From: an uncultured Candidatus Saccharibacteria bacterium
Lineage (GTDB): Bacteria > Patescibacteriota > Minisyncoccia > Phycocordibacterales > UBA9973
Assembly (NCBI GenBank): GCA_964639185.1
Contig: CAZXCN010000003.1
Location: 14,059-78,058 of the forward strand
DNA: 64,000 nt
Reading direction: 5' to 3'
Shown: piece after piece, positions 33,677-61,004 of the stretch
Layout of the letters: each line of letters starts with the position of its first letter
Position numbering within the stretch: position 1 is the stretch's first letter
Program-made: the position numbers and the translations under genes
Notes under the pieces: model-generated
Told to the model about the DNA's origin: nothing
What the model saw: the letters and a program-made list of their open reading frames with translations, nothing else
Databases searched by the model: none

Positions 33677-36469
33677 ATGGCTATTATGTGGCATAAATAT
33701 TTATACATAATACAAAATCCAGATCCTCAGACGTGTCTCGCAGGTCTCGTTTGTGCCAATGATACTTTTATTGCCATATACGGGGTCATATTCACTATTG
33801 TAATTTCCTTGGGTGTATATATTTATGGTCTACAAAACAGAGAAGAGAAAATAACCCTACTTAAAAGTACAGATATTAAAGGTATCATAGAAAACTCTCT
33901 TGGTTTTTTTGCATTTACTTTTTTTGCATTACCCAACCCCGTCTATGAAATTTTTAACTTTATATTTTTAGGATGGATTCTTCTGAGACTGCTAGGTGCT
34001 TTTAAGGAAGTCTTTAAATTTAATGAGAGCGAATTGTCGGGAGAAAGAGCTGTGAAGAAGTTCAAGGAAGGTGTGATTCGTGAGAAGCTTATCCAATTTG
34101 AGGATTTAAAGAAAAAGAATGAGTTACTGAATGAAGAACTTGAGAAGAAAAGGGGTGAGGAAATAGAAAGATTCCTCTTCAGTGAAAACAATGAGTCTTA
34201 TCACCTTATTCGCGCTCAAAGTTCCGGGTATATTACAGATATTGATCTCAATATCTTATTTGCGAATGAAGACAGTAAAGATTCTTTGGGAAATTATTCA
34301 TACTATATTCCGTATCACATTTCACACGGTGCTCCAATAGATTTCGATACAGTGATTCTCGGTGTAAAAAAAGATGGAGATAAGAAAATCGATGAAGACA
34401 GAGAAGACAGACTGCGGTCTTTCATATCTGTCAGTGATGAATATGAAAATCCGACCTCTTACATTGAAGCCGAAACAAGGAATTATTACCCACAAATGAT
34501 CTCCTTGATAAAGCTTGAAGATTCAAAAAGTCTTGAATTGAAACTTAAAGAATTTTCTAGCTTCGTTGATCATTTCACAAACAAGTCAGATTCGTACGTA
34601 GATATTATCCAATTTATTAATGATGATATTATCTTTACCTTGCAAAAATACGCATTCAAGCAAGGAAACGTTGATTGTATAAGAAAGGTGGTGTCGTTCT
34701 CTCTCGGATATATTTATCAGGCGTTAGACAAGAAATCAACGAAGACATTTAATATCTTTTTTAGAAACTTCGGGCATGCCTATTATGAAGCGTTCAGTCT
34801 CAATAAAAAAGAAAGGGATGAATTCTTTGATATTTATTTCAGATGGCTTAACGAAGTTGCTAAGTATTCATTAAAATCCAGAATCAAAAAGGATGATGAT
34901 TATTCGGAGTTTGTTACTACTTTTCTATCTGGAGTTAACGGATGGTTAAAAATTGCTTTTGACCGCAAAGACATTGATGTTTTCGAGAAAACACTGTCAT
35001 TCTTAAATAACTCTCTTTCCCGTGAGACGTATGAGCACGATAAGGATGATGCACTTGATGAGGCTGTTCTCACCAAGAAAGCTGTACTGTTTGGTTTTAC
35101 TGCGTGGGTGTATAAATATTTTCCGGCAAGAAAGGGCGATGACTTTTACCGCAATGCACTGTCCAAACTACTGTCAGCCTTGGCTAAGGATCCAATCCGT
35201 CACTACGCAAACAATCAAGATGATTTGAATTATTATTTGAGTATTTACTTAAAGAGTGCGGAACTCTCAGAAAGCAAGGGTTCTTTTGGATGGGATAGTT
35301 GGGATATGCCCGAGGGAACAGTTTCTACGGTTACAATACGTCATGATATTAAGAATCTGCTAACAGATCGTATTCTTAATATTGTATTAGCTAACCCCAC
35401 TCTAGCCGTTGATATAAAAGATAAAAATTATAACGACGAACTTTCTCTTGTAAAACAAGGCAACCAGCAGTTCGATGTTCTTCTAAATAAGACCAAAGAC
35501 TTTTTTGTCTCTACGGAAAAACTAACAGATGAACAATTTGATACCGCAAAAACTAAATTTTATGAAGTCTTCTCAAAGATCGCTGAAAAATACGAATCCG
35601 ATGTTAGGAGTAAGCTTATTCAGCAGTCAATTGATGATGAAAAATTTAATGAATTTGCAAAACAGAATTTTGAGTCATATAAAAAGTCGCGAGTTTTGTA
35701 CGGTATTCAAAAGTTTATAAAAGATAGTACAAAGAGGAGCGATGGTTTTGGATATAACACCCTCTTATCCAAAGAACAGTTTGTTAAAGAGACCAATGTT
35801 CACTATTCAAACGGAGACCAGTTTGGTGAAGATCTTGCTAGGTCAGAAGACAACAAGATTCTTGAATCCATCTACAAGAAAGTAGAAAAGACCCCTCTTA
35901 TTAGTAGAGAAAATATTGGTAAGAACATATATCCCGAGAGTGATACAACAGCCATCATCTTGTGGCTAAACGGCTACTTGAGTATCGAATCATATTCTCC
36001 TAACGATTTTGTTCCTTATTGGCAGGAAGTAGATTCCAGAAAAGATAAAGGTCCCTATTATCAAGGAACTATTAAGGGTGTTCCCGTGTATATCATTTAT
36101 AAGTTCCAAGATCAGAAGTCATATCCAGACTCCATGTTTATTTTTAAATCGGGGTCATTCTCTGCTCATGAATTTGAAATAGAGAAGGATACTGAGTTAG
36201 ATGAGGCAAACACAAAATGGTCAAACGATGAAGAAAGTTGTTTAACTTTATCCATAACTAACCTCTCAAGTCTTGATGAGGCTCGTAAAAAGATAGTTGA
36301 AAATTGGATCAAGAATGATCCTGATAGCGTAAAAGATAAAGACGCAAAAATTGAAGAGATTAAAACAGATGTGATCTTTAAATTCTATAAAGGACTGGGA
36401 GTTGAAGATTTAGTTATTGATGGTAAAAAAATTAAGATTTTCCGCATTAAGAGAAGTTGGATTAAGTAA
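33677..36469 (+). CDS. Large hypothetical protein, 930 aa: three N-terminal TM helices, a coiled-coil segment, then an ~800-aa cytoplasmic region with no recognisable motifs (island cargo)
   Basis: Long uninterrupted ORF. TMs at about residues 20-50, 65-85 and 90-110; coiled coil LIQFEDLKKKNELLNEELEKKRGEEIERF. No Walker A, integrase or nuclease signatures seen. Confidence 0.6.
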   Translation: MAIMWHKYLYIIQNPDPQTCLAGLVCANDTFIAIYGVIFTIVISLGVYIYGLQNREEKITLLKSTDIKGIIENSLGFFAFTFFALPNPVYEIFNFIFLGWILLRLLGAFKEVFKFNESELSGERAVKKFKEGVIREKLIQFEDLKKKNELLNEELEKKRGEEIERFLFSENNESYHLIRAQSSGYITDIDLNILFANEDSKDSLGNYSYYIPYHISHGAPIDFDTVILGVKKDGDKKIDEDREDRLRSFISVSDEYENPTSYIEAETRNYYPQMISLIKLEDSKSLELKLKEFSSFVDHFTNKSDSYVDIIQFINDDIIFTLQKYAFKQGNVDCIRKVVSFSLGYIYQALDKKSTKTFNIFFRNFGHAYYEAFSLNKKERDEFFDIYFRWLNEVAKYSLKSRIKKDDDYSEFVTTFLSGVNGWLKIAFDRKDIDVFEKTLSFLNNSLSRETYEHDKDDALDEAVLTKKAVLFGFTAWVYKYFPARKGDDFYRNALSKLLSALAKDPIRHYANNQDDLNYYLSIYLKSAELSESKGSFGWDSWDMPEGTVSTVTIRHDIKNLLTDRILNIVLANPTLAVDIKDKNYNDELSLVKQGNQQFDVLLNKTKDFFVSTEKLTDEQFDTAKTKFYEVFSKIAEKYESDVRSKLIQQSIDDEKFNEFAKQNFESYKKSRVLYGIQKFIKDSTKRSDGFGYNTLLSKEQFVKETNVHYSNGDQFGEDLARSEDNKILESIYKKVEKTPLISRENIGKNIYPESDTTAIILWLNGYLSIESYSPNDFVPYWQEVDSRKDKGPYYQGTIKGVPVYIIYKFQDQKSYPDSMFIFKSGSFSAHEFEIEKDTELDEANTKWSNDEESCLTLSITNLSSLDEARKKIVENWIKNDPDSVKDKDAKIEEIKTDVIFKFYKGLGVEDLVIDGKKIKIFRIKRSWIK

Positions 36470-36476
36470 GTTCACA

Positions 36477-36512
36477 GGTACCAAAATAGCCCTTTAAGGG
36501 CTATTTTGGTAC
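36477..36512 (+). terminator. Perfect 16-bp stem hairpin immediately after the 930-aa ORF (no T-run)
   Basis: ggtaccaaaatagccc-ttta-agggctattttggtac. Confidence 0.45.
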
Positions 36513-36536
36513 GCTTCTCGTGCCGCGCTCTTGAAG

Positions 36537-36700
36537 GTGACCCTACAGGGAACCGCGAGTACGCTTTCGGTCACGAGTCTTTTCTTGGTAGAAAAGCTCG
36601 CGACCCCGACTCGGCTCGACAGCCTCCGTCTTTCGATTCTTTTTAAACATAGATTTAGCTATGTTTAAAAATCACAAAATTTGTCCTGCGGAAAATTTTG
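36537..36700 (+). repeat. GC-rich repeat element E2. It has a 16-nt exact direct repeat of the tRNA-Glu 3' end (gtgaccctacagggaa, 36537..36552), a conserved arm (gagtac ... gtctttcgattct to 36640) and further hairpins up to the tRNA
   Basis: gtgaccctacagggaa is identical to 36700..36715. The arm is homologous to E1. It contains the palindromes aaacatagatttagctatgttt and cacaaaattt...aaattttgtg. Confidence 0.7.
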
Positions 36701-36772
36701 TGACCCTACAGGGAATCGAACCCTGATTCCATCCTTGAGAAGGATGTGTCCTAACCGTTAGACGATAGGGCC
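36701..36772 (-). tRNA. tRNA-Glu (anticodon CUC)
   Basis: The reverse complement reads GGCCCUAUCGUCUAACGGUUAGGACACAUCCUUCUCAAGGAUGGAAUCAGGGUUCGAUUCCCUGUAGGGUCA. The anticodon loop is UUCUCAA and the T-loop UUCGAUU. Confidence 0.85.
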
Positions 36773-36898: not shown

Positions 36899-37963
36899 AT
36901 GAAAGAAGTTTCAGCAGACCCTAACATCCTCATAATCGGAGGCAGTACTTGTAATGATGGCATAGCTGTCGAAATTGCAGGAATTTTAGGAACAGATTTG
37001 TTTCCATGTGATATTGGAAAATTCGCAAACGGAGAACCTGACATTGATTTAAAAAAAAGTGTCAGAGGTAAAACAGTATTTTTTATCCAACGTTCATTAA
37101 CTGGAAATGGTGAAATGGGTTCTGGTATGATGGAAACCCGCACTGTTGCAGATGCGTTGTTGAGGGCTAAGGTAGGTAGAATGATACTCATACAATTAAA
37201 TTTTCCCATGTCTAGACAAGACAGAAGAGAATTTAATGTTAAATCAAAAAGTTTGAAACCTAAAAGACGCCCCATCAGTGCAAGAGTAGCTGCAGATTTC
37301 TACACAGAATGTGGATTTGAAGATGTTGTAACTATACATTTGCATTCTGCCCAAATTGAAGGATTCTTCGATGCTAGAAAGTGTGGTATTGATAATATCA
37401 ATCCCGCATCTGTTTTTATAGATTATTTGCATGAAGAAGGAATTTTGAATGGAGAAAATAGTGACCTCATGCTGGTATCTCCTGATGTTGGGGGTGCTAC
37501 ATTTGTTTCTTTGATCTCAGACATTTTAAACTTACCTCCTTATGCAATTATTGATAAACGCAGAACGGGTCCTGGTAAAAGCAAAGCCATGAACATAATT
37601 GGTAGTGTGAAAGGTAAGAGGTGTATTTTGTGGGACGATATGGTGGATTCTGGTGGAACTGCCGTTGAAGCTGCTGAAAAGGTTTTGGATGAAGGAGCAA
37701 AAGAGGTAATGCTAATTGCTACTCACCCAGTGCTTACAGGTGAAGCCGTTAAAAATTTACTAAATTCAAAATTTAGTAAAGCTATCTTCACAAACACACT
37801 TCCTATTCCAGTAGAATTAAAAAATAGTCCAAAGATTGTTCAGCTATCTATTGGTCCAATGGTAGCAAGAATTATTGCAAATATTTACAATGATGAATCG
37901 TTAGAAGAAATTGTGAATATTAATACAGAATTTTTACAATCTAAAACTGCTACACAATCATGA
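36899..37963 (+). CDS. prs: Ribose-phosphate pyrophosphokinase (PRPP synthetase) with a short basic insertion
   Basis: PRPP-binding loop ILWDDMVDSGGTAVEAA; RQDRRE flexible-loop region with an extra EFNVKSKSLKPKRR. Start placed at the ATG at 36899. Confidence 0.8.
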   Translation: MKEVSADPNILIIGGSTCNDGIAVEIAGILGTDLFPCDIGKFANGEPDIDLKKSVRGKTVFFIQRSLTGNGEMGSGMMETRTVADALLRAKVGRMILIQLNFPMSRQDRREFNVKSKSLKPKRRPISARVAADFYTECGFEDVVTIHLHSAQIEGFFDARKCGIDNINPASVFIDYLHEEGILNGENSDLMLVSPDVGGATFVSLISDILNLPPYAIIDKRRTGPGKSKAMNIIGSVKGKRCILWDDMVDSGGTAVEAAEKVLDEGAKEVMLIATHPVLTGEAVKNLLNSKFSKAIFTNTLPIPVELKNSPKIVQLSIGPMVARIIANIYNDESLEEIVNINTEFLQSKTATQS

Positions 37964-38100
37964 AAAATTTATTTTTTAACAACGATCCTCGTGAATACGG
38001 GGAAGACGATGACGAAGAAGAAGACGAAGACGGTAACTATTCAAATTATTCAGAAGATTCTGAAGCTAATGAATCTGCTACTGATCTAAGAGGGAAGTAA
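37960..38100 (+). CDS. Possible small acidic protein (46 aa) overlapping the prs stop (ATGA)
   Basis: Manual translation: MKNLFFNNDPREYGEDDDEEEDEDGNYSNYSEDSEANESATDLRGK. Not in the ORF track. Confidence 0.2.
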   Translation: MKNLFFNNDPREYGEDDDEEEDEDGNYSNYSEDSEANESATDLRGK

Positions 38101-38122
38101 AATTCTCACAAACACAATTCTA

Positions 38123-38170
38123 AAATCCTACAGACGTTTAACCAACGTTTGTGGGATTTTTTTTATACCT
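38123..38170 (+). terminator. Rho-independent terminator (imperfect 14-bp stem + T8)
   Basis: atcctacagacgtt-taacca-aacgtttgtgggatttttttt. Confidence 0.6.
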
Positions 38171-38255
38171 AAATATAGGGTTGACCCCGTTAGAAGCAGG
38201 TCGCCCCAAGGTGATCGTAGCACTCCCGTACTCAGGAAGGTGGCTACTAACGATA

Positions 38256-38284
38256 TTGACAAATATGCTTAAAAGGTATATAAT
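38256..38284 (+). promoter_or_regulatory. Consensus sigma70 promoter (TTGACA-17 nt-TATAAT) ending 10 nt upstream of the ATG (leaderless or near-leaderless)
   Basis: ttgacaaatatgcttaaaaggtatataat then atataaact ATG. No Shine-Dalgarno. Confidence 0.6.
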
Positions 38285-38293
38285 ATATAAACT

Positions 38294-38686
38294 ATGAAAA
38301 AAGGAGTATTAATAATTTCAATATTTATTTTATCAATAAGTTTTGGGCTGACAGCTTTCCCTCAGTCAGCAAATGCTGTGTGGGGTCTAAATGTTGGTTT
38401 GGGTTTTGGTAATGGTGGTTATGATAATTATGGTGGAGGCTACTCCTCATATGGTAACAATTATGGCAATAGTCCTTATGGCTATGGCTACAATGCGCCT
38501 TACAACGGAACTTGGGGTAATAATGCTTATACTAATCCATACGGTAGTTATTATGGTAACTACGGTAACAACAATAATGCAAGGCTTAATGTAGGTATTA
38601 ACTTTGGTTTCAATAATTATGGTGCTAACACTTATGGTGGATACGGAGGTTACTCATGTATGCCAACAAACATCTGGGGTTGCTAA
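38294..38686 (+). CDS. Secreted Gly/Tyr/Asn-rich low-complexity protein (130 aa) with a signal peptide and a C-terminal Cys pair
   Basis: Signal MKKGVLIISIFILSISFGLTAFPQSANA, then GYGYNAPYNGTWGNNAYTNPYGSYYGNYGNNNN ... CMPTNIWGC. Confidence 0.55.
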   Translation: MKKGVLIISIFILSISFGLTAFPQSANAVWGLNVGLGFGNGGYDNYGGGYSSYGNNYGNSPYGYGYNAPYNGTWGNNAYTNPYGSYYGNYGNNNNARLNVGINFGFNNYGANTYGGYGGYSCMPTNIWGC

Positions 38687-38699
38687 ATTTAAAATAAAC

Positions 38700-38742
38700 A
38701 AAAATCACTTGGAAGTCAGACTTCCAAGTGATTTTTGTTTAT
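38700..38742. terminator. Bidirectional rho-independent terminator between convergent genes
   Basis: aaatcacttggaagtc-aga-cttccaagtgatttttgttt (perfect 16-bp stem). Confidence 0.75.
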
Positions 38743-39785
38743 TAATCTTCGTTTATTTTTTCTAGCAACATTGGCTCGAGCTCTATACTCTCGCCAGTGA
38801 TCTTCATAATATCTTTATCTACTTTTTTGAATTCTTTTTGGCTGGCTTGGTAGTGGTTGATAACTGTACCAATAGAATTACCAAGCTTGTTGTGATATTC
38901 CTCATACGATTTTAAATGTTTAGTCAATTCACCAACACGCTTTACTATATCTTTTGCACTCTCTTCTATCTGCATAGCTTTGAGGCCTTGGAGTACTGTT
39001 TGCAAATAAGCTAGGAATGAAGTAGGGGATACAATAATGACTTTGTATTTACTTGCAGCACGCTGAATCAGGTTTTCGTTGTCTTCATTCAGCCCTCCTA
39101 TTTTATTTATAAGCAAGTCATAATATATGGCTTCGTGAGGGATGAACATAAAGGCAAAGTCCATTGTGTTTTGATCGGGTTGGATATATTTACTTGTCTC
39201 GCTTATTCGCATTTTCAAATCATTTACAAAAGTTTTCTCTAATCTTTCTTTTTCAGATTTATCATTTGTTTCTACCATGCGATTATAATTCTCGAGCGAG
39301 AATTTAGAATCAATAGGAATGATTTTGTCTTTTACAAATACTACAGCATCGACAATAGTACCATCGGGGAATCCGTATTGCATTTCATAGCTTCCAGGTG
39401 GCATGACATTTTTTAATAAAGTTTCCAAATAATATTCACCGAGCACACCACGCTGTTTTGGGTTCTTCAATATGTCTTGCAAGCTCTTGAGCTGGTCGGC
39501 AAAAGATACAACTTGTTTATTTGTCTCATCGAGGCGTGTAATCTTCTCTGTGATGTCACCTATAATGCGAGATGTTTCGCTTGATTGATAGCGCATAGTC
39601 TCATTTACCTGTTTACTTGATTCATGGAGCTTGTTGTCCAGAGTCCGAGTCATCTCATTCATTTGCGCTAGAATCAATTTTAGCCCTGTATCATCAGCTT
39701 GCGTATCCTTTTTACTACGAGTAAAAAAGTAACCTACTACAAGCCCAGCTAGTACTGCAATTATTATAAATAAAATATTTGTCAT
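38742..39785 (-). CDS. rmuC: DNA recombination protein RmuC
   Basis: N-terminal TM, a long coiled coil and the RmuC C-terminal domain (GVLGEYYLETLLKNVMPPGSYEMQYGFPDGTIVDAVVFV... MFIPHEAIY). Confidence 0.7.
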   Translation of the reverse strand: MTNILFIIIAVLAGLVVGYFFTRSKKDTQADDTGLKLILAQMNEMTRTLDNKLHESSKQVNETMRYQSSETSRIIGDITEKITRLDETNKQVVSFADQLKSLQDILKNPKQRGVLGEYYLETLLKNVMPPGSYEMQYGFPDGTIVDAVVFVKDKIIPIDSKFSLENYNRMVETNDKSEKERLEKTFVNDLKMRISETSKYIQPDQNTMDFAFMFIPHEAIYYDLLINKIGGLNEDNENLIQRAASKYKVIIVSPTSFLAYLQTVLQGLKAMQIEESAKDIVKRVGELTKHLKSYEEYHNKLGNSIGTVINHYQASQKEFKKVDKDIMKITGESIELEPMLLEKINED

Positions 39786-39889: not shown

Positions 39890-41716
39890 ATGAACAAAAG
39901 ATCCTTATTGCTCAAAAATTCTAGTGTAGAGATTAACAACACTGAAAAATTTGGATTGCTTCAATTTTTGCAATCCATCACTAACTCCATTCCCATGCCA
40001 CGTCTTTGGTTGCCTAATAATGATTACGATTATATGGGTTCCTTTCAGATCAAAGAAAAAATCGAAAAAAATGGCTTAAATTTTTTATCAAACATTGAAA
40101 TAGACTACGTAACTCTCTTGCAAAGACAAGAATTTATTAAATGGTTCTTTGGTAACAAGGAATTCATTAACTTCCTTTTGACTACAACTGTGCCGGTAAA
40201 AAAAAGTAGCGGTAATCGTTACTCTGATGTTACCGATGTTTTGGCAATGCGTCGTTATCTGTCGAATCTTTTAAAGTATCTAGAGGAACATCCTTATAGT
40301 GCTTCTTTTGCAAAAAAAGTGAAAAAAGAGTTATCTGATTTCAGGCAGATTGATTCCTTGGTAAGCTCATGTCACTCAATTACACTACAGGGAGTATGTT
40401 CTTTTACTCCAGAAAATCATTCCAGGAAATTTTTTCTTAATACGAAAAATTTGGAGTTAAAATTGGTTGGAAAAAATAAAAAGTACATACTAACTATTAT
40501 TGACTTTTTAGAGGGAAATGTTGATTCTATGAAATGTTGTTTAGAACAAAAAGGTGGAGATTCAAAAATGCCATATGATATTTGCGAAGCGATTTTTTAT
40601 GCAATTTTTACTTTATATAATGATGATATTAAAAAAATATCAGAAAATAAGAAGGGTAACGTGCATATAAAGCTTGAATTTTCAGACATTCAATTAAGAA
40701 GTGTGCAATGTATGTTGTCAGTACAAGGATTCGGTAAAAAGCATGTATTGTATCCTGTGAAAGTCGATCCGACGAGTAACAGTTACGAAACTGTTGAATT
40801 CCATGTTCTGCCAGAAAATGATTCTATTACAAAACACAGAATACTCACTAAAGTTTTACCTATTCAAAAATTGATGGATCTTCCTGGAAAAGAATCAGCA
40901 GGCTTATCAAACGGGTTCATTAATAAAATGACGAATACGGTAAGTGAATTTTTTCGACAATCTGATTCTTTTAAGGAATTGATTTTTTTGGCCAGCATTG
41001 CTCACTACTATCATAAATCTGGTAAAGTTTTTGTTTTCCCTAAAATTCTTCCAAAAGAAGAAATGAAGCTGAAATCAATAGCAAGTATCAATCCTTTGTT
41101 TATTGATGCAAAAAAATCGGTGCCAAATAATGTAATGTTGAATAGAAAGATATTGGCGAATGTGATTTATGGTGCAAATACTGGAGGAAAGACAGGTTAT
41201 GTAAATATGTTTATTTTAAATCAAATTTTGACTCAAACAGGATTACCTATTTTTGCCAAAAATGCCGAAATTTCCATGAAGGACAATATTCTCCTTCATT
41301 ATCCTGAAGGTGCAGAAATAAGCCCAAATGAATCAAGGTTTGATGCTGAGCTATCTCGATTGGAAACGCTATTAAAGCAGTCTACTAAATATAGCCTCAT
41401 AGTATTTGATGAAGCTTTTACAGGGACAGAGGCAGAAGTCGGTTCTTCTCAGTTGCAGGATGTGATTTTTGTGTTGAAGACATTGGGATGCCATTTTATG
41501 GTAACTACTCATTTTCATGGATTAATTGATTTCATTGATAAAATGGAATCTTTAGAAAATAAACATTTTAAATTGCCCAATCCTAACGGCGTCAAAAAAT
41601 TTAATTATAAAATCCAACCTAATGGATCAACTCAATCTTTTGGCCTTGATGTTATTCGTAGAAAAAAATTAGATCTTGAGTCAATGTTGAAATTAGTAGA
41701 AAAGAAAACTACTTAA
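39890..41716 (+). CDS. MutS-family ATPase (domain V only) with a ~400-aa N-terminal region of unknown homology; no mismatch-binding or Smr domain
   Basis: C-terminal ABC/MutS ATPase: Walker A GANTGGKTGYVNM, MutS signature SRFDAELSRLETLL, Walker B SLIVFDEAFTGTE and TTHFHGL (the ATHYHEL equivalent). The N-terminal 400 aa are unrecognised. Confidence 0.6.
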   Translation: MNKRSLLLKNSSVEINNTEKFGLLQFLQSITNSIPMPRLWLPNNDYDYMGSFQIKEKIEKNGLNFLSNIEIDYVTLLQRQEFIKWFFGNKEFINFLLTTTVPVKKSSGNRYSDVTDVLAMRRYLSNLLKYLEEHPYSASFAKKVKKELSDFRQIDSLVSSCHSITLQGVCSFTPENHSRKFFLNTKNLELKLVGKNKKYILTIIDFLEGNVDSMKCCLEQKGGDSKMPYDICEAIFYAIFTLYNDDIKKISENKKGNVHIKLEFSDIQLRSVQCMLSVQGFGKKHVLYPVKVDPTSNSYETVEFHVLPENDSITKHRILTKVLPIQKLMDLPGKESAGLSNGFINKMTNTVSEFFRQSDSFKELIFLASIAHYYHKSGKVFVFPKILPKEEMKLKSIASINPLFIDAKKSVPNNVMLNRKILANVIYGANTGGKTGYVNMFILNQILTQTGLPIFAKNAEISMKDNILLHYPEGAEISPNESRFDAELSRLETLLKQSTKYSLIVFDEAFTGTEAEVGSSQLQDVIFVLKTLGCHFMVTTHFHGLIDFIDKMESLENKHFKLPNPNGVKKFNYKIQPNGSTQSFGLDVIRRKKLDLESMLKLVEKKTT

Positions 41717-52453: not shown

Positions 52454-52726
52454 TTAGGCAAGGATAGAAATACCTTCGAGTTTTTTCTCAAGCCGAGTAG
52501 CTTTTCGATTTAGGGCTTTAAAGGTTTTTTCCAAGAAATTCCACAATGAGCCTGGCTGTGTTCTTGTTTTCCAATATGCTTCGCATATACGGTTGATTTG
52601 TCGAATTTTTTCACTGATAAATGTGTAATCATTCGATAAATTTGTAAATTCTTTGATGTAACTAGGCTCCTTAGGTGCAACAGGATTAAAATCTGTTTTC
52701 ATGATTTTTTTTGTTAAGTGGGACAA
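52454..52726 (-). CDS. Small hypothetical protein (90 aa)
   Basis: ORF only; no homology recognised. Confidence 0.3.
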   Translation of the reverse strand: MSHLTKKIMKTDFNPVAPKEPSYIKEFTNLSNDYTFISEKIRQINRICEAYWKTRTQPGSLWNFLEKTFKALNRKATRLEKKLEGISILA

Positions 52727-52800
52727 TTGTTTAAAGAATTATAAACAATTACACATTGTGTGTCAACATGGTTTAATTTAGTCTTATCTTATAAGATTAT

Positions 52801-60365: not shown

Positions 60366-60626
60366 ATGGCAAAGAAATTATATGTTGGTGGTCTTCCTTA
60401 CAAGACAACTAACGACGAGCTAAAAGCTCACTTTGAGGGTGCAGGTTCAGTTGAATCAGCAACAATTATCATGGATAAGATGACAGGCCGATCAAAAGGT
60501 TTTGGATTCGTAGAAATGACAAATGATGAAGATGCTGACAAAGCTATCTCAATGTTTAACGGTCAAGATTTCGATGGTCGAAATCTAACTGTCAACGAAG
60601 CTCGCCCAATGGCACCACGTGCTTAA
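60366..60626 (+). CDS. RRM-domain RNA-binding protein
   Basis: RNP2 LYVGGL and RNP1 KGFGFVEM; 86 aa. Confidence 0.85.
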   Translation: MAKKLYVGGLPYKTTNDELKAHFEGAGSVESATIIMDKMTGRSKGFGFVEMTNDEDADKAISMFNGQDFDGRNLTVNEARPMAPRA

Positions 60627-60636
60627 TTAGGTTTGT

Positions 60637-60755: not shown

Positions 60756-60835
60756 GAGCGTGTAGTTCAGTGGTAGAACGCTGTCCTGATATAACGGGTA
60801 CAATATAAATGGTTCGCTCGTTCAAAATAAAAGAG
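60756..60835 (+). pseudogene. Truncated/degenerate tRNA-Ile copy (5' half through the anticodon loop)
   Basis: gagcgtgtagttcagtggtagaacgctgtcctgata matches positions 1-36 of the downstream tRNA-Ile with 2 mismatches, then diverges; no valid anticodon stem or T-arm. Confidence 0.55.
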
Positions 60836-60852: not shown

Positions 60853-60924
60853 GCGCGTATAGTTCAGTGGTAGAACGCTGTCCTGATAAGACAGAGGCCC
60901 TTGGTTCGATTCCAAGTACGCGCA
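60853..60924 (+). tRNA. tRNA-Ile (anticodon GAU)
   Basis: GCGCGUAUAGUUCAGUGGUAGAACGCUGUCCUGAUAAGACAGAGGCCCUUGGUUCGAUUCCAAGUACGCGCA. The anticodon loop is CUGAUAA; acceptor GCGCGUA pairs with UACGCGC. Confidence 0.85.
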
Positions 60925-61004
60925 CGCAGGGCGGTATACTCTTTTACTTTGCAACTCGCTGCCATTTATAAGACAGAGGCCTTTGATCTATATAAATCAA
61001 TTTT

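What the first reader, a model, noticed from the sequence alone, without database searches (positions are those of the whole stretch)
38256..38686. Secreted Gly/Tyr/Asn-rich small protein driven by a perfect consensus promoter, probably on a leaderless mRNA
TTGACA-17-TATAAT is the only perfect consensus promoter I found. It ends 10 nt before the ATG with no Shine-Dalgarno, which implies high-level, probably leaderless expression.

The product has a signal peptide plus ~100 aa of G/Y/N repeats and ends in CMPTNIWGC, a possible disulfide. Candidate roles are an abundant surface or structural protein, an adhesin-like fibre or a bacteriocin-like peptide.
Basis: seen in the sequence. Interest (0 to 1): 0.5.

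Follow-up and report, generated by a model that had tools for sequence, protein, structure and literature searches.

The report
Strongly promoted secreted Gly/Tyr-rich protein
A small exported protein made almost half of glycine and tyrosine sits behind a textbook-perfect promoter that has been kept unchanged in a dozen related Saccharibacteria genomes, so it is a real gene, probably very abundant, of unknown but probably surface or matrix function.

Summary
ORF 38294..38686 (+, 130 aa) follows an exact TTGACA-17-TATAAT (38256..38284), with 9 nt to the ATG, no Shine-Dalgarno, and a 25-bp-stem terminator.

It is not the only perfect promoter: a second lies at 52766..52738 (-). Lack of SD and a promoter abutting the ATG are the norm in this genome.

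The gene is real. Eleven other loci, one a Saccharibacteria MAG, carry a relative. It is convergent with rmuC in every locus where that flank is on the contig. dN/dS is 0.10-0.38.

All 12 loci keep both hexamers exact, an 8-9 nt gap, and a purine 3 nt before the ATG. Proteins have drifted to about 35% identity. Expression level itself is inferred, not measured.

Conserved protein features:
- a Sec/SPase I signal peptide;
- an amphipathic strand motif at the mature N-terminus;
- 43-53% Gly+Tyr with Asn or Asp, and almost no Lys/Arg;
- usually a short C-terminal Cys-Cys loop.

There is no Pfam, NCBIfam, PADLOC or PDB match, and AlphaFold2 predicts disorder.

Best reading: an abundant, self-associating extracellular coat, matrix or adhesive protein. 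A bacteriocin is less likely. Function is untested.

The parts
38122..38167 (+). Intrinsic terminator of the upstream prs / small-acidic-ORF unit. It marks the left boundary of the transcription unit.
   Evidence: 17-pair stem followed by a T run. The element is conserved in L003 and L004.
38256..38261 (+). -35 hexamer TTGACA
   Evidence: Exact in all 12 family loci.
38279..38284 (+). -10 hexamer TATAAT, 17-nt spacer, no TG extension
   Evidence: Exact in all 12 family loci, with a conserved AAAAG(G/A) just upstream in most.
38291..38291 (+). Predicted transcription start (A), the 7th base after the -10 box, giving the 5' end ACU-AUG
   Evidence: Inference from the canonical -10-to-start distance. 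A purine sits 3 nt before the ATG in all 12 loci, whether the gap is 8 or 9 nt. The 5' end is unstructured: -4.3 kcal/mol, z +0.5.
38294..38377 (+). Start codon and Sec-type signal peptide, MKKGVLIISIFILSISFGLTAFPQSANA, with predicted cleavage ANA|VW
   Evidence: Sequence. The Lys-Lys n-region, hydrophobic core, Pro at -6, small residue at -3 and Ala at -1 are conserved in 13 of 13 relatives. AlphaFold2 models only this part as a confident helix.
38378..38410 (+). Mature N-terminal amphipathic strand motif VWGLNVGLGFG (alternating hydrophobic and small residues)
   Evidence: The most conserved feature of the mature proteins across the whole family.
38411..38581 (+). Gly/Tyr/Asn low-complexity core, including the block PYNGTWGNNAYTNPYG (38498-38545) that is conserved in the closest subgroup
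   Evidence: Composition. Block conservation. AlphaFold2 pLDDT below 50.
38582..38611 (+). Second copy of the strand motif, RLNVGINFGF. It is an internal duplication present only in the Asn-rich subgroup.
   Evidence: DNA repeat 38399-38437 versus 38603-38641 at 72%. Alignment.
38657..38686 (+). C-terminal loop C-MPTNIWG-C (probable disulfide) and the stop codon
   Evidence: CMPTN(G/I)WGC is invariant in the 5 closest relatives. Other relatives have C-x3..6-C at or near the C-terminus. Two relatives have none.
38693..38743 (.). Bidirectional intrinsic terminator shared with the convergent rmuC gene (38742..39785, minus strand)
   Evidence: 25-nt perfectly complementary arms. Fold energy -31.4 kcal/mol, z -10.8. 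Equivalent hairpins follow the stop codon in the 7 other loci printed, which has no downstream sequence for L014-L017.

Best explanation
The unit is a monocistronic transcript of about 455 nt in a Saccharibacteria (CPR) chromosome.

Expression (sequence features shown; start site and expression level inferred): a maximal-strength sigma-70-type promoter fires from a purine 3 nt before the ATG. This makes an unstructured, SD-less, near-leaderless mRNA. It is translated by the SD-independent route that this genome appears to use for most genes.

Export (inferred from sequence and conservation): the 130-aa precursor is exported by Sec and cut after Ala28. This releases a protein of 102 aa, about 10.7 kDa, with essentially no charge and no Lys.

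Function (inferred, not shown):
- The product is made in large amounts and has no globular fold.
- It self-associates outside the cell through its amphipathic strand motif(s) and its dense array of Tyr 'stickers' in Gly/Asn spacers.
- The assembly could be amyloid-like or gel-like. It would form part of the cell coat, an extracellular matrix or an adhesive layer of the epibiont.
- The C-terminal disulfide-closed loop would act as a cap or docking element.
For: Real, constrained gene:
- 12 distinct loci carry a relative, plus one borderline locus.
- In the 8 loci with enough downstream flank, the gene is convergent with rmuC.
- Reading frame and signal peptide are kept.
- dN/dS is 0.10-0.38.

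Strong expression:
- An exact consensus promoter is expected 0.05 times per window.
- Both hexamers are exact in 12 of 12 loci, although dS is about 1.0-1.3 between the window and its nearest subgroup and proteins fall to about 35% identity.
- The other promoter-proximal genes here rely on TGnTATAAT with poor -35 boxes.
- There is a mild shift to TAC, AAC and GGT codons.

SD-free initiation.

Export: the -3/-1 rule holds in 13 of 13 relatives, and there is no lipobox.

Non-globular, cohesive character:
- AlphaFold2 gives pLDDT 45.7, with only the signal peptide modelled.
- G+Y is held at 43-53% across the family while Asn and Asp swap.
- Lys and Arg number only 0-3.
- The amphipathic strand motif is conserved.

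Cys residues occur only as short-range pairs.

The core-like fixed locus, without partner genes, fits a structural product better than a toxin.
Against: - There are no expression, localisation or assembly data.
- The strong promoter is inferred from the E. coli-type consensus, which has not been validated for Saccharibacteria RNA polymerase.
- A 3-nt leader, rather than a 5'-terminal AUG, might lower translation if this organism's leaderless route needs a terminal AUG.
- Two relatives lack the Cys pair, so the loop is not essential.
- Asp-rich relatives are poor amyloid candidates, so any shared mechanism must rest on Gly/Tyr cohesion rather than Asn ladders.
- The family was found in few genomes. 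That may reflect fast, low-complexity divergence, or true rarity.
- No assembly, anchoring or cross-linking partner is evident nearby.
Confidence: 0.4

Rival explanations
1. Antimicrobial or host-directed peptide, bacteriocin-like. The Sec-exported Gly-rich peptide with a C-terminal disulfide loop would damage or manipulate the host bacterium or competitors. It would resemble Gly-rich class II microcins (colicin V has a C-terminal disulfide loop) or the Gly/Tyr-rich antimicrobial peptides of nematodes and arthropods.
For: - The product is small, secreted and Gly-rich, with a C-terminal Cys loop.
- The promoter is strong.
- The sequence differs sharply between close relatives. rmuC is 92% identical between the window and L010, while this protein is 38% identical. 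This could reflect arms-race diversification.
Against: - Mature proteins are neutral to strongly acidic (pI 4.1-8.0, 0-3 basic residues), not cationic.
- There is no double-glycine leader and no YGNGV box.
- No immunity, ABC-export or modification gene is adjacent. Neighbours are prs, rmuC, a MutS-domain protein and an exonuclease.
- The gene sits at a fixed chromosomal position in every locus with flanks, unlike patchy accessory bacteriocin loci.
- There is no PADLOC, Pfam or NCBIfam hit.
- The L010 contrast is confounded. prs is also only 40% identical there, so a recombination breakpoint explains it.
Confidence: 0.12
2. Covalently cross-linked wall protein. After export, the Tyr-rich chain is built into the envelope by oxidative Tyr-Tyr (dityrosine or isodityrosine) coupling. 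This would resemble plant glycine-rich wall proteins, insect chorion and resilin, or Bacillus Tyr-rich spore-coat proteins.
For: - Tyr makes up 13-30% of the mature proteins and is conserved across the family.
- The architecture (signal peptide, Gly-rich region, C-terminal Cys motif) matches plant class II glycine-rich proteins. This comparison is from prior knowledge, not a test.
- The absence of Lys and Arg fits a protease-resistant matrix.
Against: - No peroxidase, laccase or tyrosinase gene is at the locus.
- Many Saccharibacteria live in low-oxygen habitats, where oxidative coupling and even disulfide formation are uncertain.
- There is no sortase or wall-anchoring motif.
Confidence: 0.15
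3. Precursor of a secreted signalling peptide. The conserved C-terminal disulfide-cyclised nonapeptide (CMPTNxWGC) is released by proteolysis and sensed as a cell-cell or host-contact signal, in the way Phr-type peptides are cut from the C-termini of small Sec-exported precursors. Its variation between lineages would represent pherotypes.
For: - The C-terminal loop is the most invariant block in the closest subgroup, yet differs in sequence and ring size between subgroups.
- The precursor is small and Sec-exported.
Against: - A spacer of about 90 aa with composition held constant at 43-53% G+Y is not expected for a mere pro-region.
- Two relatives have no Cys loop.
- No receptor, kinase or processing gene is linked.
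- A maximal constitutive-type promoter is unusual for a signal.
Confidence: 0.06
4. Cation-binding or otherwise non-structural abundant periplasm-like protein. It would serve, for example, as a Ca2+/Mg2+ buffer or a scavenger, using Asp and Tyr side chains.
For: Several relatives are very Asp-rich, with (DDYGYGY)n tracts and up to 17 acidic residues.
Against: The window protein and its four nearest relatives carry 0-1 acidic residues. Cation binding therefore cannot be the shared function.
Confidence: 0.04

Closest known systems
Bacterial functional amyloids and self-assembling surface proteins (curli CsgA, Pseudomonas FapC, Streptomyces chaplins)
   Same: - Small, Sec-exported and abundantly expressed.
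- Rich in Gly, Asn and other small residues, with strand-forming motifs.
- Chaplins and FapC carry conserved Cys pairs, and FapC has a C-terminal CxxC (prior knowledge).
- The proposed mode of action is the same: extracellular self-assembly.
   Different: - No sequence relationship: Pfam gives zero hits for all 12 members scanned.
- No imperfect-repeat architecture like CsgA or FapC.
- No nucleator, chaperone or export partner genes at the locus.
- Far more Tyr.
- Asp-rich relatives are unlike any of these proteins.
Eukaryotic secreted Gly/Tyr-rich matrix and adhesive proteins (plant class II glycine-rich wall proteins, high-Gly/Tyr keratin-associated proteins, mussel and sandcastle-worm adhesive proteins)
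   Same: - Signal peptide, a short Gly/Tyr-dominated low-complexity chain of about 5-12 kDa, and often terminal Cys.
- Cohesion through Tyr.
- The only Pfam near-hit in the family is a compositional one, to the keratin type II head (E 0.026, 1 of 12 members).
   Different: - Analogy of composition and architecture only. These are different domains of life and no homology is detectable.
- The marine adhesives are strongly basic and use DOPA. These bacterial proteins have almost no Lys or Arg.
Gly-rich class II microcins and Sec-dependent class II bacteriocins
   Same: Small exported Gly-rich peptide with a C-terminal disulfide loop.
   Different: - No double-glycine leader.
- No immunity or ABC-export genes.
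- Not cationic.
- Fixed core-like locus.
Leaderless / SD-independent gene expression, as described for Actinomycetota, Deinococcus-Thermus and archaea
   Same: - The -10 box lies within 6-9 nt of the start codon and there is no SD.
- This is a genome-wide pattern here: 24 of 58 gene starts against 4.2% of control ATGs, with a mode of 6 nt.
   Different: This gene keeps a 9-nt gap (8 nt in two relatives), with a conserved purine 3 nt before the ATG. The predicted mRNA therefore has a 3-nt leader rather than a 5'-terminal AUG. It also adds a perfect -35 box, which the other promoter-proximal genes in the window lack.

Membership tests
Sigma-70 consensus promoter | TTGACA and TATAAT hexamers separated by 17 +/- 1 bp | tested here: met
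   12 of 12 positions match at 38256..38284. The hexamers are exact in all 12 family loci, with 16-17 bp spacers.
Sigma-70 consensus promoter | Actually directs transcription initiation in this organism | not testable with these tools
   No transcript data are available. Conservation despite dS of about 1 is indirect support.
Leaderless mRNA | Transcription starts at, or within a few nt of, the A of the start codon | tested here: inconclusive
   The gap is 9 nt, against the genome mode of 6 nt. Canonical spacing places +1 at 38291, 3 nt upstream of the ATG. No 5'-end data are available.
Leaderless mRNA | No Shine-Dalgarno sequence upstream of the start codon | tested here: met
   The upstream 9 nt are ATATAAACT. 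The same holds in relatives.
Sec / signal peptidase I substrate | Basic n-region, hydrophobic h-region, small residues at -3 and -1, and no lipobox Cys | tested here: met
   MKK, then a 17-19 residue hydrophobic stretch, then P-x-x-[ASTV]-x-A. This is conserved in 13 of 13 relatives and no Cys lies near the cleavage site. Checked by inspection and rule, not with SignalP.
Curli (CsgA/CsgB, Pfam Curlin_rpt) and chaplins (Pfam chaplin domain) | Match to the family profile | tested here: not met
   No Pfam family reaches E <= 0.1 for the window protein. None is relevant for any of the 12 members.
Class IIa (pediocin-like) bacteriocins | YGNGV/L box with an N-terminal disulfide, a double-glycine leader, and a cationic mature peptide | tested here: not met
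   No YGNG[VL] is present in the sequence. The leader is Sec AxA type. Net charge is about 0, or acidic in relatives.
Class II microcins (colicin V type) | Double-glycine leader, with adjacent immunity and ABC-export genes | tested here: not met
   Neighbours are prs, rmuC, a MutS-domain protein and an exonuclease.
Sortase-anchored surface proteins | C-terminal LPxTG, followed by a hydrophobic segment and a basic tail | tested here: not met
   The protein ends ...SCMPTNIWGC with no hydrophobic tail.
Type IV pilins | Class III signal peptide (G|F/M-x-x-x-E) followed by a hydrophobic N-terminal helix | tested here: not met
   The cleavage region is PQSANA|VWG, with no Gly-Phe...Glu5 motif.

The most novel reading that the evidence does not exclude
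The protein is the abundant, Tyr-sticker disordered 'cement' or coat of these epibiotic Saccharibacteria. It would be a new bacterial class of extracellular self-assembling material, amyloid-like or condensate/gel-like. It would mediate cohesion or attachment to the host cell. Its distinct allelic types at one fixed locus (Asn-rich with CMPTNxWGC, Pro/Asn-rich, Asp-rich) would track host or habitat specificity.
Probability: 0.15. Interest if true: 0.75.

Novelty: new variant of a known kind. Interest (0 to 1): 0.4.

Why it matters
How ultrasmall CPR epibionts build their envelope and stick to host cells is largely unknown, and most of their small secreted proteins are unannotated.

This locus offers a concrete, testable candidate. 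It is a conserved gene, probably highly expressed, whose product has no Lys and a single Arg, so standard tryptic proteomics would not see it.

It also gives a clean natural example of promoter architecture in an organism that appears to use almost no Shine-Dalgarno sequences. That is useful for gene calling and for building expression tools in Saccharibacteria.

If the protein turns out to be an ordinary minor secreted protein, the finding stays a well-documented hypothetical family.

Tried and rejected
**Family and structure searches, no informative result**
- Pfam, NCBIfam and PADLOC scans of the protein, and Pfam scans of all family members, gave nothing beyond signal-peptide or compositional noise.
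- A profile search of PDB sequences gave nothing.
- AlphaFold2 with a 12-sequence alignment modelled only the signal-peptide helix. No fold search was worthwhile.

**Homologue searches**
- The exhaustive representative search with a 3-sequence profile found only 5 proteins.
- A final word-indexed search with an N-terminal-only profile was unproductive: 2 hits, one borderline.
- The metagenome scan chose a signal-peptide pattern and returned one locus that duplicates L017.

**RNA elements**
- Rfam searches of the GC-rich segments upstream (38170-38250 and 36500-36650) found nothing at either the gathering or a permissive threshold.
- The 38165-38258 segment does not fold better than shuffles, z -1.3.

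**Literature**
- Searches covered Saccharibacteria/Patescibacteria with leaderless, glycine-rich, low-complexity and highly expressed hypothetical proteins, plus the sample accessions. None described this family.

**Ideas rejected**
- The in-ORF AAAGGAG at 38299-38305 as an internal SD: it is not conserved in relatives.
- The upstream ATG that gene callers used in L003, L004 and L013 as the true start: it lies inside or right after the -10 box.
- Using the 92% versus 38% rmuC / G-Y-protein contrast with L010 as proof of hypervariability: prs is also only 40% identical there, so the locus is mosaic.

Full report
**1. What is in the sequence**

- The plus strand carries TTGACA (38256-38261), a 17-nt spacer and TATAAT (38279-38284).
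- Nine bases (ATATAAACT) follow, then an ATG at 38294 that opens a 130-codon ORF ending at 38686.
- An in-frame TAA at 38288 excludes any start further upstream.
- A hairpin with 25-nt perfectly complementary arms (38693-38743) follows the stop codon. Its fold energy is -31.4 kcal/mol, z -10.8.
- This hairpin also serves the convergent rmuC gene (38742..39785, minus strand; Pfam RmuC, E 1e-53).
- Upstream, a terminator at 38122-38160 closes the prs unit.
- The gene is therefore an isolated monocistronic unit of about 455 nt.
- Exact TTGACA-N17-TATAAT is expected 0.05 times per window in dinucleotide shuffles. It occurs twice.
- The second copy, at 52766..52738 on the minus strand, drives an 82-aa ORF through a 35-nt leader.

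**2. Leaderless expression is the genome's habit, not this gene's peculiarity**

- Among 58 gene starts in the window, only 2 have a GGAG/GAGG/AGGA tetramer upstream. The rate for control ATGs is 9.4%.
- 24 of 58 starts have a -10-like box ending 5-9 nt upstream, against 4.2% of control ATGs (p = 3e-18). The mode is sharp at 6 nt (14 genes).
- Most of these promoters are of the extended -10 type (TGnTATAAT) with poor -35 boxes.
- With a 6-nt gap, the canonical start site is the A of the ATG, which gives true leaderless mRNAs.
- The G/Y gene differs in two ways. It has a perfect -35 box and no TG extension. Its gap is 9 nt, which places the canonical +1 on A38291 and predicts a 5'-ACU-AUG end.
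- The first 60 nt of that RNA are unstructured.
- SD-led initiation is still possible in this organism. An RRM-type RNA-binding protein gene at 60367 has a clear AAGGAG.

**3. The gene is conserved, and the promoter more so than the protein**

*Loci found*
- Searches of about 5.8 billion proteins, 1.84 billion cluster representatives, one genome per GTDB species and JGI metagenomes recovered eleven further distinct loci.
- They are L003, L004, L005, L015, L007, L010, L014, L012, L013, L016 and L017 (L017 is the same sequence as L006). L018 is a borderline thirteenth locus.
- L005 comes from a MAG labelled uncultured Candidatus Saccharibacteria.

*Synteny*
- In all 8 loci with enough downstream flank, the gene is convergent with rmuC.
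- The upstream neighbour varies: prs, PspC, NUDIX or a hypothetical protein.

*Selection on the coding sequence*
- Within the closest subgroup, dN/dS is 0.10-0.38 and dS reaches 1.0-1.3.
- The ORF is therefore under purifying selection while neutral sites are near saturation.

*Promoter conservation*
- Every one of the 12 loci keeps TTGACA and TATAAT exactly, with 16-17-nt spacers.
- Every locus keeps an 8-9-nt gap and a purine 3 nt before the ATG, usually as ATT-ATG.
- Across the same loci, protein identity to the window falls to 35-38%.
- L018 also has both hexamers exact, but with a leader of about 48 nt.
- This is strong indirect evidence for selection on maximal promoter strength. Expression itself was not measured.

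**4. The protein**

*Signal peptide*
- The N-terminus has a Lys-Lys n-region, a 17-19-residue hydrophobic core, Pro at -6, a small residue at -3 and Ala at -1.
- This pattern holds in 13 of 13 relatives, and no lipobox is present.

*Mature chain (102 aa in the window)*
- Composition is G 25.5%, N 21.6% and Y 17.6%, against a G+N+Y total of 15.4% in the window's other proteins.
- It has one Asp, one Arg and no Lys.

*Across the family*
- G+Y stays within 43-53%, while the third residue switches between Asn and Asp.
- Basic residues number 0-3, and pI runs from 4.1 to 8.0.
- 11 of 13 proteins carry Cys only as short-range pairs (C-x3..7-C). In each, one pair lies at or near the C-terminus.
- CMPTN(G/I)WGC is invariant in the five closest relatives.

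*Motifs*
- The best-conserved mature motif is an amphipathic strand at the new N-terminus: W/F-x-[ILV]-x-[IV]-G-[ILF]-G-F-G.
- The Asn-rich subgroup has a second copy, RLNVGINFGF, from an internal duplication.
- There is no tandem-repeat structure.

*Fold and family*
- AlphaFold2 with the family alignment gives mean pLDDT 45.7. Only the signal-peptide helix is confident.
- No Pfam, NCBIfam, PADLOC or PDB relative exists for any member.

**5. Mechanism**

*Shown by sequence and comparison*
- An isolated unit with a selected consensus promoter, SD-free initiation, and a conserved cleavable signal peptide.
- A constrained but non-globular Gly/Tyr-rich mature chain with a usually present C-terminal Cys loop.

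*Inferred*
- High abundance.
- Extracellular self-association through the strand motif and Tyr contacts, forming a coat, matrix or adhesive material.
- I give this functional reading about 0.4.

*Rivals*
- A covalently Tyr-cross-linked wall protein is a close variant (0.15).
- A bacteriocin-like role (0.12) is disfavoured by the neutral-to-acidic charge, the Sec leader, the absence of immunity or export genes, and the fixed locus.
- A C-terminal cyclic signalling peptide (0.06) and a cation-binding role (0.04) are weak.

*A caution*
- rmuC is 92% identical between the window and L010, while the G/Y protein is 38% identical.
- This cannot be read as hypervariability. prs is also only 40% identical there, and DNA identity changes abruptly at the shared terminator.
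- The locus is therefore mosaic.

**6. Comparison with known systems, and verdict**

- By proposed mechanism it is closest to bacterial functional amyloids and chaplins. By composition and architecture it is closest to eukaryotic Gly/Tyr-rich secreted matrix and adhesive proteins.
- It is a member of none of these. The profile tests were run and not met.
- The expression signals are a textbook sigma-70 promoter, set in a lineage where leaderless or SD-free initiation is pervasive.
- Verdict: a genuine, conserved, uncharacterised family of small secreted Gly/Tyr-rich proteins in Saccharibacteria, very probably highly expressed.
- It is a new variant of a known kind, of moderate interest (0.4). 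Interest would rise to about 0.75 if it proves to be the epibiont's coat or attachment material.

Noticed in passing
window 52738-52766 (-), ORF 52702..52454 (-): A second exact TTGACA-17-TATAAT promoter drives an 82-aa ORF (MKTDFNPVAPKEPSYIKEF...) through a 35-nt SD-less leader, followed by a terminator-like hairpin. No PADLOC hit; the ORF was not scanned against Pfam.
   Followed up: partly
whole window (58 gene starts): The genome shows a leaderless/SD-free architecture. TGnTATAAT typically ends 6 nt before the ATG of first genes. An SD-like tetramer occurs at only 2 of 58 starts. Gene callers mis-start several relatives of the G/Y gene for this reason.
   Followed up: yes
window 36512-36640, especially 36537-36555; tRNA-Glu at 36700-36772 (-): A 19-nt near-exact copy of the tRNA-Glu 3' end lies 163 nt from the tRNA, inside a GC-rich (about 53%) segment with no Rfam match. 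It follows a 930-aa ORF (33677-36469) that has no Pfam or PADLOC hit. It could be a remnant attachment site of an integrated element.
   Followed up: partly
window about 60759-60792; tRNA-Ile at 60853-60925 (+): A partial copy of the 5' half of tRNA-Ile (GTAGTTCAGTGGTAGAACGCTGTCCTGATA) lies about 94 nt upstream of the intact tRNA-Ile gene.
   Followed up: no
window 37960-38100 (+): A 46-aa very acidic ORF overlaps the prs stop codon (ATGA). It is conserved in L003, L004 and L015, with a PRE motif and a DL(E/R)GK C-terminus. It is probably a real small protein co-transcribed with prs.
   Followed up: partly
window 38170-38250: A GC-rich insert of about 75 nt lies between the prs terminator and the G/Y promoter. 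It is absent from L003. In L004 and L005 a perfect GC-rich hairpin occupies the same place. It does not fold significantly (z -1.3) and has no Rfam hit.
   Followed up: partly
window 36899-39785 versus L010: The locus is mosaic. rmuC is 92% identical at protein level (about 83% at DNA level) to L010, but prs is 40% and the G/Y protein 38%. The identity break falls at the shared terminator, which suggests recombination among related Saccharibacteria.
   Followed up: partly
window 60367-60627 (+): An RRM-type RNA-binding protein gene (MAKKLYVGGLPYKTT...) has a long leader and a clear AAGGAG Shine-Dalgarno. It is one of the very few SD-led genes in the window.
   Followed up: no
window 39890-41716 (+): A 608-aa protein carries only MutS domain V (E 6e-24) and an otherwise unannotated N-terminal 420 aa. 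It is divergent from rmuC and has no PADLOC hit.
   Followed up: no
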